DNA of 64,000 bases from Anolis carolinensis (taxonomy: Eukaryota). The DNA lies in NCBI RefSeq assembly GCF_035594765.1, contig NW_026943818.1, positions 31,307,559-31,371,558 of the forward strand, given 5' to 3'. A program made the position numbers. Of the stretch, positions 32,442 through 36,590 are shown piece by piece (the first letter of the stretch is position 1; each line of letters begins with the position of its first letter).

Positions 32442-35400
32442 TATTAATTAATTAATCGATCGATATTATTATTAATATTAATAATAATAATATATGCCTT
32501 TCTTTTAGCCTACCGAAGGGCAGAGAGCTTCCTCTCCACCACGACGGACGACACAATGGACGTGGGAGGAATCCCAAGGAATCGTGGTTCCGACCCGTTT
32601 GGACGTCATCTCAAGAACGGCAACGTTGTTCCGTATCCCTCTGGCTCCTTCCCGGATCTGGACGATTCCTGCTCCGGGGGGGACCGCCGGGCCTCGTCCT
32701 CGTTCCTGACGGAATGCTCTTGGAGTGACGGACACGACGAGATCCCCACTCGCTTGGGGGCGGAGTCCAAATGGCAGTTAGGCCGCGTGAACGGGAACCG
32801 AACCTTCCTTGAATCTCAAAGCGAGCCCAAATGGCAGTTAGGCCGCATGGATGGGAACCGGACGTCGAACCTCGAGTCCCAAAGCGACCCCAAATGGCAG
32901 TTAAGCCGCATGGATGGGAACCGAACCTCAAGCCTCGAGTCCAAAAGAGAGCCCAAATGGCAGTTAGGCGGCATAAACAGGAAGCAAACCTCGAGCCTCG
33001 AGTCCGAAAGAGAGCCCAAATGGCAGTTAGGCGGCATAAACAGGAAGCAAACCTCGAGCCTCGAGTCCGAAAGAGAGCCCAAATGGCAGTTAGGCGGCAT
33101 AAACAGGAAGCAAACCTCGAGCCTCGAGTCCGAAAGAGAGCCCAAATGGCAGTTAGGTGGCATAAACAGGAAGCAAACCTCGAGCCTCGAGTCCGAAAGA
33201 GAGCCCAAATGGCAGTTAGGCGGCATAAACAGGAAGCAAACCTCGAGCCTTGAGTCCAAAAGAGAGCCCAAATGGCAGTTAGACCGCACGGATGCGAACC
33301 AAACCTCGAGACTCGAGTCTGAAAGCGAGCCCAAATGGCAGTTAAGCTGCACGGATGGGAACCGAACCTTGAGCCTCAAGTCTGAAAGCGAGCCCAAATG
33401 GCAGTTAGGCCGCACGGGCGGGAACCTTGAGTCCAGATCCCAGGAGATACTCAAATCTGACTCTGAACCGGATCATCTGCCCAACGCCGATGCCACCCTG
33501 GACCTGACCCTCTACCGCAGCTTCCTCGACCCGGAACTGGTGGTGAGGCCCAACGTCCGGCAAGGGCTGGACGCCACCTCTCCGGACCACGTCTTCCTCT
33601 TCTCCCGAGAAGACGCCGCAATGGCGGAGGATCTGGAACGGACTCTGGCGGCCTTTTCGGAGGGAAGTTGCAGCGAGTACCTTTCGTGCCACGGCGAGGA
33701 AGACGGACTCCGCGACGGATCTGGAACCACGTCAATCACGTCCGAACGAGAAGTGGAGACTCAGGACGTTCAGGACACGGTTCTTATTATACAGGGGACA
33801 CCCGAGACTCCGGGAACGAGTTCGGACATGGCCGAGACCGTGGTGGTTTCCGGAACGAGTCCGGATACGGTCCACCCGAGTCCAGCGGAAGAGGTCTTGT
33901 CCAGCTTAGAGGCCAAACTGAGGGACATGATGCTGGCCACCAAGGCCTCTCGCTCGCCGCTGATCCGGACCGTCGACGTGGTCGAACGGCGTTTTCCCGC
34001 ACCCGCCGCTTCGTCTCTCTTTGACGAGGATCTCGAGATGCCGAGGCGCCCGAGACGGGTCCGCAGCCCTGAAGCCGGAAGAGGCTGCGTTTCGACCGCC
34101 GGACCGCAAAACGAGAGTCCGGAAACCGGACCGCTGGCGGACACCCAGTTGATACCGGTTGTGATAACAGAACCCGACGAGCGAAGACCGTTTAATCCTG
34201 GCAACGAGACGGGCGCCGAACGCTTCTGCTTTGTGTCTCCGAGAGATAAAACAAAGGAACGGAGCGACGAGACAGGCGCCGAACACTTCGTGTCTCTAAG
34301 GGATAACCAAAAGGAATGGGACCACGAGACAGGCGCCGAACACTTCTGCTCCGTGTCTCCAAAAGATAAACGAAAGGAACGGTACCACGAGACAAGCGCC
34401 GAACACTTCGGCTCTGTGTCTCTAAGGGATAAACAAAAGGAACGGGGCAATGAGACGGGCGCCGAACACTTCTGCTCCGTGTCTCCAAGGGATAACGGAT
34501 ATGAAAAGGACCATGAGACAGGCGCCGAACACTTCTGCTCCAGGTCTCCAAGGGATAATCGAAAGGAACGGGACCACGAGACGGGTGCCAAACCCTTCTG
34601 TTCCGTGTCTATAAGGGATAAACAAGAGGAACGGGGCCACGAGACAGGCACCGAACACTTCTGCTCCCTGTCTTTAAGGGATAAACAAAAGGAACAGGAC
34701 AACGAGACAGGCGTCAAACCCTTCTGCTCCAGGTCTCTAAGGGATAAACAAGAGGAACGGGGCCACGAGACAGGCGCCGAACACTTCTGCTCTGCGTTTC
34801 TAAGGGATAAACAAGAGGAACAGGACCACGAGACAGGCGCCGAACACTTCTGCTCTGCGTTTCTAAGGGATAAACAAGAGGAACAGGACCACGAGACAGG
34901 CGCCGAACACTTCTGCTCAGTGTCTCTAAGGGATAAACAAGAGGAACGGGGCGACAAGACGGGCGCCAAACCCTTCTGCCCTGTGTCTCCAAAAGATAAA
35001 CGAAAGGAACGGGATCACGAGACAGGCGCCAAACCCTTCTGTTCTGTGTCTATAAGGGATAAACAAAAGGAATGGGGCAACGAGACAGGTGCCAAACCCT
35101 TCTGCTCCGTATCTCTAAGGGATAAAGAAAAGGAACAGGACCACGAGACAGGTGCCGAACCCTTCTGCTCCGGGTCTCTAAGGGAACGGGGCAATGGCAA
35201 TGCCAAACCATTATCGGAAGTCAAGAGCACAAGGGTGAGCTTCAGCCGGATGTCTCTACGAGGACCCTCTCTTGTGGCCACTTCACCCCAGAGATCGAAC
35301 CCCGTTGTTCAAGCGTCCCAGCTCTCCCCGGGTGGCCGCCCCGTTGGCGCCAACGCCGCCGAACCCTTGGAGTACCTTTACGTGGATGAGGAGGAGGGCC

Positions 35401-36590
35401 ACTCCCTGGTCGAGAGGCGCGTCCCCTTCACGGACGAGTCGCTCGCCGGGTCCGAGGACACCGTTGTGTACGACTGGCGGGACCACCCGGGGACCCTCTC
35501 GGACGAGGCCCTGGTCCGGGAGCTGCGGGACTTCGGGGTGAACCCGGGCCCGGTGACGGGGCTCACGCGGAAGGTCTACGCGCAGCTCTTGGAGAAGCTC
35601 AGGAGCGACCCCAGGACCAAGGCGCGGAAGGATGCGGCAGGTAAGCGGTTGTGAGGAGTTGTGGGAGTTGAAGTCCAAACACTTGGACCCACGATCCCGA
35701 ACTCATTCCTCAGGATACAGCCCGGAACTGGCCTTCGCTCTGGAGACGTTCCTGATCCCGGATGCGAAGGAGGACGAAATGGCTTTGATGGCACAATTCG
35801 ACCGTCCGGATCAGAACCGGAAGTGGAGGGAAGGTCTGCTCAAGTCCAGCTTTAACTACCTGCTCCTGGACCCCAGGTAGGACACCCCCCACTCACCCAC
35901 CTCCCTCACTACTAGGTTCTCTTGTAGTACGATTATATCATAATAATAATAATAATGATGGTGAGGTGGCTTAAACTCTGGACATTCCTTTCCTGGCTTT
36001 GCCTTTGTTTCCCATAGGGTGACCTAGAACCGTCACAACAACAACACTAGCTTATTACAATTCTTGTAATAATAATAATAATAATAATATGACCGTTCTG
36101 TCTCATAGGGTGACCTAGAACCGTCACAACAACAACACTAACGTATTACAATTCTTGTCATAATAATAATAATAATATGACCATTCTGTCTCATAGGGTG
36201 ACCTAGAACCTTCATAACAACAACAATAACTTATTACAATTCTTGTCATAATAATAATAATAATATGACCGTTCTGTCTCATAGGGTGACCTAGAACCTT
36301 CATAACAACAACAATAACTTATTACAATTCTTGTCATAGTAATAATAATATGACCGTTCTGTCTCATAGGGTGACCTAGAACCTTCATAACAACAACACT
36401 AACTTATTACAATTCTTGTCATAGTAATAATAATATGACCGTTCTGTCTCATAGGGTGACCTAGAACCTTCATAACAACAACACTAACTTATTACAATTC
36501 TTGTCATAGTAATAATAATATGACCGTTCTGTCTCATAGGGTGACCTAGAACCTTCATAACAACAACACTAACTTATTACAATTCTTGTC

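What the first reader, a model, noticed from the sequence alone, without database searches (positions are those of the whole stretch)
32509..35640. ANKLE1 more than doubled by a 3,132-nt exon holding two unrelated 21-aa repeat arrays
Seen: one stop-free exon (phase 1 to 1) between the ankyrin and LEM domains, with 11 KWQL repeats and 16 H-x5-H-F-C-type repeats. Both units are 63 nt and their indels are in frame, whereas several intronic arrays use 46, 58, 62/64 or 80 nt. Human ANKLE1 is about 615 aa (recalled) versus about 1403 aa here. Inference: the local minisatellite process has invaded the protein under frame selection, adding possible His/Cys metal ligands and SP phosphosites to the linker.
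Basis: partly seen in the sequence, partly recalled or inferred. Interest (0 to 1): 0.65.

Follow-up and report, generated by a model that had tools for sequence, protein, structure and literature searches.

The report
Repeat arrays inside anole ANKLE1 exon
The green anole's ANKLE1 nuclease gene carries two in-frame 63-base repeat arrays inside its large linker exon, but that exon is just as long in other reptiles without repeats, so this is an ordinary case of repeats growing in a floppy, tolerant part of a protein.

Summary
Window 32509-35640 is one 3,132-nt, stop-free, phase 1-1 exon of Anolis carolinensis ANKLE1, already in RefSeq as a 1,403-aa protein. It carries 11 KWQL units and 16 units of a second kind. 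Both arrays have period 63, and all length variants are multiples of three.

The headline inference fails. ANKLE1 is 1,118-1,461 aa in the 22 named reptile and frog models retrieved. The equivalent exon segment is 770-1,100 aa in them, with no arrays outside Anolis. The repeats therefore did not double the protein.

In A. carolinensis the arrays fill 564 of 1,043 codons, and a long middle stretch kept by its relatives is missing. Both units are amplified native coding sequence, with no copy elsewhere in the window. Array 2 is shared with A. sagrei (24-aa units). Array 1 is single-copy there and has a young core of identical units.

Differences among units show no excess of synonymous change. 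The His positions are not conserved. AlphaFold2 predicts no structure for either array.

Best reading: coding minisatellites tolerated in a disordered linker, filtered only for frame and stops. No transcript data were available, so whether the arrays are translated remains untested.

The parts
30110..30196 (+). ANKLE1 first coding piece (residues 1-29 of RefSeq model P0002)
   Evidence: Exact mapping of P0002 on the window
30473..30625 (+). Ankyrin-repeat coding exon (residues 30-80)
   Evidence: mapping; Pfam Ank E=5.7e-07 on the enclosing frame
30708..30812 (+). Ankyrin-repeat coding exon (residues 81-115)
   Evidence: mapping; Pfam Ank E=4.9e-05
31606..31708 (+). Last ankyrin exon; ends with 1 base of a split Ser codon; donor GTAAGT
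32509..35640 (+). Giant linker-plus-LEM exon, 3,132 nt, phase 1-1, no stop
32763..33452 (+). Array 1: 11 KWQL units (60 nt, then ten of 63 nt; the last unit diverges in its 3' half). Units 4-6 are identical
33453..34202 (+). Non-repeat middle of the linker, with conserved islands (ATLDLT.Y.SFLDP, GLDxTSPDH, KLRxMMLATKA, LFDExLEMPRRPRRVRSP)
   Evidence: Alignments; predicted helix at exon aa 465-475
34203..35204 (+). Array 2: 16 units of 63 nt (unit 2 is 57 nt), consensus HETGAEHFCSVSLRDKQKERD
35493..35600 (+). LEM domain, inside the same exon
   Evidence: Pfam PF03020 E=2.9e-10 at exon aa 995-1030; pLDDT 95-97
35714..35877 (+). Next exon, after a 73-nt intron (residues 1195-1248)
36822..36992 (+). 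GIY-YIG nuclease exon, first part
   Evidence: Pfam PF22945 E=4.7e-14
37085..37213 (+). GIY-YIG nuclease exon, second part
   Evidence: Pfam PF22945 E=1e-17
39056..39223 (+). Last coding exon with TGA stop

Best explanation
This is the ancestral giant exon of non-mammalian ANKLE1. It encodes a long, mostly disordered linker between the ankyrin repeats and the LEM domain, studded with short conserved islands.

In the anole lineage, two poorly conserved spacers between those islands each had a 63-nt piece of their own coding sequence amplified head to tail, by slippage or unequal exchange (mechanism inferred). Array 2 arose before A. carolinensis and A. sagrei split. Array 1 arose afterwards and is still young. 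Over the same period A. carolinensis lost a long middle stretch of the linker, so total length stayed within the reptile range.

The arrays persist because the LEM and GIY-YIG nuclease domains lie downstream. Only copy-number and length changes that keep the frame open and free of stops can survive. The residues of the units themselves appear to drift. The arrays most likely act as neutral or near-neutral spacer.

Shown: anatomy, orthologue lengths, in-situ origin, relative age, and the lack of a synonymous excess. Inferred: the mutational mechanism, the frame filter, translation of the arrays, and the lack of a specific function.
For: Gene identity and exon.

Long linker elsewhere: 22 named models of 1,118-1,461 aa. 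Exon-equivalent 770-1,100 aa in 19 of 26 rows. Two unnamed proteins, P0014 (1,006 aa from a 3,859-nt contig) and P0016 (933 aa from a 3,852-nt contig), are single frames. Both run out of the exon-equivalent at its 3' boundary, and P0014 also at the 5' boundary. This suggests one uninterrupted exon in other squamates too.

Arrays of three or more copies were found only in the two Anolis species: 3 of 28 rows, counting two A. carolinensis models, plus one weak 13-aa signal in P0018.

In-situ origin: A. sagrei has one copy where array 1 sits, between the same flanks. The array 2 core aligns to single-copy residues in Sceloporus, Phrynosoma and geckos. No copy of either unit occurs elsewhere in the window: 0 outside HSPs for array 1, and only 10-11-nt chance matches at E>=1.4 for array 2.

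Age: A. sagrei has 6 full 24-aa units of array 2. Array 1 units 4-6 are identical and units 7-8 differ from them by 1-2 nt. Array 2 units are 73-94% identical, with one identical pair.

Drift: variants against the unit consensus are 7 synonymous to 19 non-synonymous (27% against 23% expected) in array 1, and 12 to 33 (26% against 25%) in array 2. The two wrong frames give similar fractions.

Disorder: 877 of 1,043 residues have pLDDT below 50, and neither array has any secondary structure.

Tolerance: passages of PMC11975286 state that deleting the whole unstructured region of C. elegans LEM-3 leaves function normal.

Assembly: an older RefSeq model (XP_008123580.1) differs from the current one at 2 residues but has the same 11 and 16 units.
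Against: No transcript or peptide evidence was available here, so translation of the arrays rests on gene models and on frame conservation.

Array 2 has kept a recognisable core (AKP-F/L-C-S-V-S-x-R-D-K) and a Cys in 14 of 16 units here and 6 of 6 in A. sagrei. That could reflect function rather than shared descent plus homogenisation.

The synonymous/non-synonymous test is weak. Counts are small, units are related by duplication, and each variant was scored singly against a consensus; one double change was scored as a false 'stop'.

The first 15 nt of each array 1 unit are nearly invariant at all codon positions. Neither drift nor protein-level selection explains this by itself.

The AlphaFold2 alignment is thin over the arrays, since only A. 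sagrei covers array 2, so low confidence there is weak evidence of disorder.
Confidence: 0.72

Rival explanations
1. Array 2, and perhaps array 1, is a selected functional module. It would be a multivalent, charged, Cys-bearing repeat that binds a partner, metal or nucleic acid, or is phosphorylated at its SP sites, and so tunes where or when the nuclease acts.
For: Array 2 is present in two Anolis species, with Cys in 14 of 16 and 6 of 6 units and a shared core motif. SP occurs in 5 of 16 units. In C. elegans LEM-3 the equivalent unstructured region carries Aurora-kinase sites that affect midbody localisation (passages of PMC11975286).
Against: There is no synonymous excess among units. The His positions are not conserved: 6 of 16 units have the full pattern here, and 0 of 6 A. 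sagrei units have the second His. At most three candidate ligands occur per unit. Pfam finds no family other than LEM, and AlphaFold2 predicts no structure. The array is absent from the 24 non-Anolis rows. Consensus identity between the two species, about two thirds by eye, is no higher than in the unique flanks (57% and 74%).
Confidence: 0.13
2. The arrays are removed from most mature mRNAs through internal splice sites (exitron-like), so the real protein is shorter than the 1,403-aa model.
For: A 470-aa database model (P0012) skips most of both arrays. GTRAG strings occur at 33543 and 35235 inside the exon. Several AG|GT and pyrimidine-rich AG sites are visible by eye in array 2 units.
Against: P0012's three internal jumps use GC-AG, GC-AG and AT-AG. 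One retained piece is read in a different frame from the exon. The model is also truncated. This is the signature of an alignment-driven automatic model, not of a transcript. Three RefSeq models keep the whole exon. If the arrays were intronic there would be no reason for 27 units and every indel to stay in frame and free of stops. A search among shorter proteins found no other short anole form: 3 hits, of which only P0012 was anole-like.
Confidence: 0.1
3. The copy numbers are an assembly artefact: arrays collapsed, expanded or chimeric.
For: Arrays containing identical units (array 1 units 4-6, array 2 units 10-11) are the kind that assemblers get wrong.
Against: Two RefSeq proteins that differ at two residues, and so come from different underlying sequence, have the same length and the same 11 and 16 units. 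The arrays join their conserved flanks in frame.
Confidence: 0.04

Closest known systems
ANKLE1 orthologues of other squamates and turtles (e.g. Anolis sagrei XP_060640741, 1,227 aa; Sceloporus undulatus, 1,258 aa; Gekko japonicus, 1,320 aa; Emydura macquarii, 1,461 aa)
   Same: Same domain order: ankyrin repeats, a long linker with the same conserved islands, LEM, GIY-YIG. Similar total length.
   Different: The non-Anolis proteins have a non-repetitive linker. A. carolinensis has 564 of 1,043 exon codons in two arrays and lacks a long middle stretch. A. sagrei has only array 2, with 24-aa units.
Human ANKLE1 (about 615 aa) and C. elegans LEM-3 (704 aa)
   Same: Ankyrin, LEM or LEM-like, and GIY-YIG architecture, with an unstructured region between the ankyrin and LEM parts (passages of PMC11975286; Pfam).
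   Different: Their linker is several times shorter. No human sequence was fetched or aligned here; the length comes from the paper passage 'ANKLE1(406-615)'.
Coding minisatellites (VNTRs) in protein-coding exons, such as the mucin repeats, the 48-bp repeat of DRD4 exon 3 and the 54-bp repeat of PER3 (recalled, not checked by any search)
   Same: Head-to-tail units whose length is a multiple of three, lying inside an open exon in low-complexity or disordered protein regions. They are subject to copy-number turnover.
   Different: Copy-number polymorphism, the hallmark of those loci, is not shown here: two models have the same numbers. Here two unrelated arrays sit in one exon.

Membership tests
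ANKLE1 / LEM-3 nuclease family | N-terminal ankyrin repeats | tested here: met
   Pfam Ank E=5.7e-07 and 4.9e-05 on upstream exon frames
ANKLE1 / LEM-3 nuclease family | Central LEM (or LEM-like) domain | tested here: met
   PF03020 E=2.9e-10, 40 bits against a cut-off of 24, at exon aa 995-1030; pLDDT 95-97
ANKLE1 / LEM-3 nuclease family | C-terminal LEM-3-type GIY-YIG nuclease domain | tested here: met
   PF22945 E=4.7e-14 and 1e-17 on two downstream exon frames
ANKLE1 / LEM-3 nuclease family | Catalytic residues intact and nuclease active | not tested
Coding minisatellite (VNTR) | Tandem units of roughly 10-100 nt, a multiple of three, within an open exon | tested here: met
   Period 63 for both arrays; variants of 60 and 57 nt; 0 stops in frame
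Coding minisatellite (VNTR) | Copy number varies among individuals | tested here: inconclusive
   Two RefSeq models that differ at 2 residues have identical copy numbers. Two sequences are too few to judge
Coding minisatellite (VNTR) | Arrays are present in the mature mRNA and protein | not testable with these tools
   No transcript or peptide data. Three RefSeq models keep the exon whole
Zinc or other metal-binding Cys/His repeat | Four conserved Cys/His ligands at fixed spacing per unit | tested here: not met
   At most three candidates per unit. All three are present in 6 of 16 units. A. sagrei units lack the second His in 6 of 6
Zinc or other metal-binding Cys/His repeat | Match to a known metal-binding family or a confident fold | tested here: not met
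   Pfam finds only LEM in the exon. Array residues have pLDDT below 50 and no secondary structure

The most novel reading that the evidence does not exclude
Array 2 is not filler. On this reading it is an anole-specific, Cys-bearing, highly charged multivalent module, kept for the whole time since A. carolinensis and A. sagrei diverged despite unit-length change (21 against 24 aa). It would alter the localisation, partner binding or redox or metal sensitivity of a nuclease that must be kept away from bulk DNA. Array 1 would be a second, younger module of the same kind now expanding.
Probability: 0.1. Interest if true: 0.45.

Novelty: new member of a known kind. Interest (0 to 1): 0.2.

Why it matters
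The value is mainly as a correction. Comparing a reptile protein with its human orthologue alone suggested a dramatic gain. A panel of reptiles and one frog shows instead that the long linker is the common state, and that the anole arrays replaced linker sequence rather than adding to it.

The locus is a tidy natural example of two coding minisatellites of different age in one exon. One is shared by two Anolis species and the other is private to one. This could serve for studying repeat turnover under a pure reading-frame filter, and for asking how much sequence freedom the ANKLE1 linker has. It opens no long-standing question.

Tried and rejected
- Whole-library HMMER search with the exon. 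The repeat parts matched only unrelated repetitive proteins (P0056, P0065, P0066, P0072, P0075; 17-31% identity, E from 6e-11 to 7e-5), which I read as repeat-on-repeat noise. No relative of either unit was found outside Anolis.
- tblastn of P0012 on the window returned only some pieces. I replaced it with exact-string mapping.
- Higher-order periodicity in array 2. My protein scan reported period 42, but nucleotide identity is flat across unit offsets 1-5 (0.82-0.84), so there is no two-unit superstructure.
- Pfam on the minus-strand frames at 41601-42140 and on a 275-aa frame at 39467-40294 gave nothing above cut-off.
- Literature. No paper holds both 'ANKLE1' and 'Anolis'. A search on coding minisatellites and one on Anolis minisatellites gave listings I did not read further; nothing in them bears on this locus by title.
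- Bacterial, phage and plasmid collections were not searched because they cannot hold a lizard gene.

Full report
WHAT IS THERE

The window is from Anolis carolinensis. [quoted passage not shown]

Pfam finds ankyrin repeats in the upstream exon frames. It finds a LEM domain at residues 995-1030 of the exon itself, and the LEM-3-type GIY-YIG nuclease domain in two downstream exon frames. Mapping P0002 back on the window gives nine coding pieces from 30110 to 39223.

The flagged exon runs from 32509 to 35640, 3,132 nt. It is preceded by TTTTAG and followed by GTAAGC. Split codons at both ends fit phase 1. The next intron is only 73 nt.

I searched only with the translation of this single exon. 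The step of joining exons into a spliced model of my own and searching with it was left out. Full-length comparisons use the public proteins that the searches returned. Nothing handled here was taken for human, and no human sequence was fetched.

IS IT MORE THAN CHANCE?

The annotated frame has no stop in any of five parts of the exon, while each of the other five frames has stops. None of 20,000 shuffles of the 479 non-repeat codons was stop-free.

Within array 1 some other frames are also largely open, so openness inside an array says little on its own. What counts is that both arrays join conserved coding sequence on each side in one frame.

THE ARRAYS

- Array 1 (32763-33452) has 11 KWQL units: one of 60 nt, then ten of 63 nt, the last diverging in its 3' half.
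- Array 2 (34203-35204) has 16 units of 63 nt, except one of 57 nt.
- Tandem Repeats Finder reports period 63 for both.
- Together they fill 564 of the 1,043 full codons.
- Array 1 has a young core. Units 4-6 are identical and units 7-8 differ from them by 1-2 nt, while the outer units are 76-87% identical.
- Array 2 is older and more even, at 73-94% identity with one identical pair, and has no higher-order period.

THE KEY COMPARISON

Two searches with non-repeat parts of the exon returned 22 named ANKLE1 models, from:
- A. sagrei and other iguanians;
- lacertids, skinks, a cordylid, an amphisbaenian and a monitor;
- two snakes and geckos;
- turtles and the frog Ascaphus.

All are 1,118-1,461 aa.

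I measured the segment between the boundary motifs of this exon. It is 770-1,100 aa in the 19 of 26 non-carolinensis rows where both motifs were found, against 1,042 aa here and 852 aa in A. sagrei. My patterns failed on seven rows, or those rows are partial.

Two unnamed proteins, from contigs of about 3.85 kb, are single frames that run out of the exon-equivalent at its 3' boundary. One of them, P0014, also does so at the 5' boundary (P0014, P0016). This suggests the segment is one exon in other squamates too.

A scan for arrays of three or more copies was positive only for the two A. carolinensis models and A. sagrei, apart from a weak 13-aa signal in one unnamed turtle-like row.

So the anole protein is not doubled by its repeats. 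It lies within the normal range for reptiles, and the short linker is the mammalian state. The human length comes from the passage 'ANKLE1(406-615)' in PMC11975286.

The alignment also shows that A. carolinensis lacks a long stretch of middle linker. A. sagrei, Sceloporus, Phrynosoma, Pogona and the geckos all keep it.

WHERE THE UNITS CAME FROM

In the alignment, A. sagrei has a single copy of the array 1 unit between the same flanks. Array 2 is shared with A. sagrei, which has six full units of 24 aa plus degenerate ends. The array 2 core aligns to single-copy residues in the other lizards.

Neither unit has a copy elsewhere in the 64-kb window, although the window is crowded with non-coding minisatellites. 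The arrays are therefore amplified native coding sequence. Array 2 predates the split of the two anoles and array 1 came later.

IS THERE SELECTION ON THE UNITS?

Variants against each unit consensus are 7 synonymous to 19 non-synonymous in array 1, and 12 to 33 in array 2. These fractions are those expected from random change, and they match what the two wrong frames give. The test is weak: counts are small, units are related by duplication, and each change was scored singly.

The proposed His/Cys pattern is complete in only 6 of 16 units. Its second His is absent from all six A. sagrei units; only the Cys and an AKP-F/L-CSVS-x-RDK core are shared.

An AlphaFold2 model of the exon, built on a 23-row alignment, gives pLDDT below 50 for 877 of 1,043 residues and no secondary structure in either array. 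The confident parts are the LEM domain (95-97), a hairpin at 953-970 and a helix at 465-475. The alignment is thin over the arrays, so this is modest evidence of disorder.

Passages of PMC11975286 report that the unstructured region between the ankyrin and LEM-like domains of C. elegans LEM-3 can be deleted without loss of function.

ARE THE ARRAYS SPLICED OUT, OR MISASSEMBLED?

Three RefSeq models keep the exon whole. An older model differs from the current one at two residues yet has the same 11 and 16 units, which argues against an assembly slip.

One 470-aa database model (P0012) skips most of both arrays. Its jumps are GC-AG, GC-AG and AT-AG, and one retained piece is read in another frame. 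I take it for an automatic alignment artefact. A search among shorter proteins found no other short anole form.

No transcript data could be consulted, so translation of the arrays remains inferred.

VERDICT

The explanation is half right: in-frame amplification under a frame filter holds. The headline claims do not: the protein is not doubled, there was no invasion from outside, and the metal-ligand idea has no support.

The sequence has been in RefSeq for years. No paper in the searched library holds both 'ANKLE1' and 'Anolis'. This is a new example of a known kind, of low to modest interest.

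Noticed in passing
window 1336-2693, 8183-9642, 23917-26727, 37323-38713, 42407-43759, 53941-56622 and others: The window is unusually dense in long non-coding minisatellites: 64 nt x 21, 58 nt x 25 at 98% matches, 103 nt x 26, 93 nt x 15 inside the ANKLE1 intron between the GIY-YIG exons, 30/60 nt, and 46/80/92 nt. About a third of the periods are multiples of three, as chance would give.
   Followed up: partly
window 36992-37292: RefSeq isoform X1 (P0082, 1,404 aa) reads through the donor after 36992 into the intron frame 36750-37292. 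This replaces the second half of the GIY-YIG domain with unrelated residues, so that predicted form would lack a complete nuclease domain.
   Followed up: partly
window 33690-33710 (exon aa about 393-400): Between SEYLSCHGE and EDGLRDGSG, A. carolinensis lacks a long stretch of linker (a few hundred residues by eye) that A. sagrei, Sceloporus, Phrynosoma, Pogona and the geckos keep. This offsets the length added by the arrays.
   Followed up: partly
proteins P0008 (Sphaerodactylus townsendi) and P0089 (Gekko kuhli): By eye, each has its own two-copy tandem duplication in the linker: a 19-aa unit in the spacer that holds array 2 in Anolis, and a 29-aa unit in the upstream spacer. My scan asked for three copies and so missed them. 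The linker may be prone to tandem duplication in general.
   Followed up: no
protein P0012; window 32079-32105, 32821-33282, 33325-34300, 34366-35291: A 470-aa database model of the same gene skips the arrays through non-GT-AG jumps, includes a 9-residue piece from the preceding intron, and reads one array 2 piece out of frame. It is probably an artefact that could mislead orthologue tables.
   Followed up: yes
window 35641-35713: The intron after the giant exon is only 73 nt, GTAAGC...CCTCAG.
   Followed up: no
window 41601-42140, minus strand: Open frames that look to me like an alpha/beta-hydrolase gene running towards ANKLE1. From memory they resemble ABHD8, the neighbour of ANKLE1 in mammals. 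Pfam gave no hit on the two pieces tried, so this is unconfirmed.
   Followed up: partly
window 32823-33404 (array 1): The 15 nt encoding PKWQL are invariant in units 2-11 at all codon positions, while the rest of the unit varies. The conservation is at the DNA level rather than specific to the protein, and it is unexplained.
   Followed up: no
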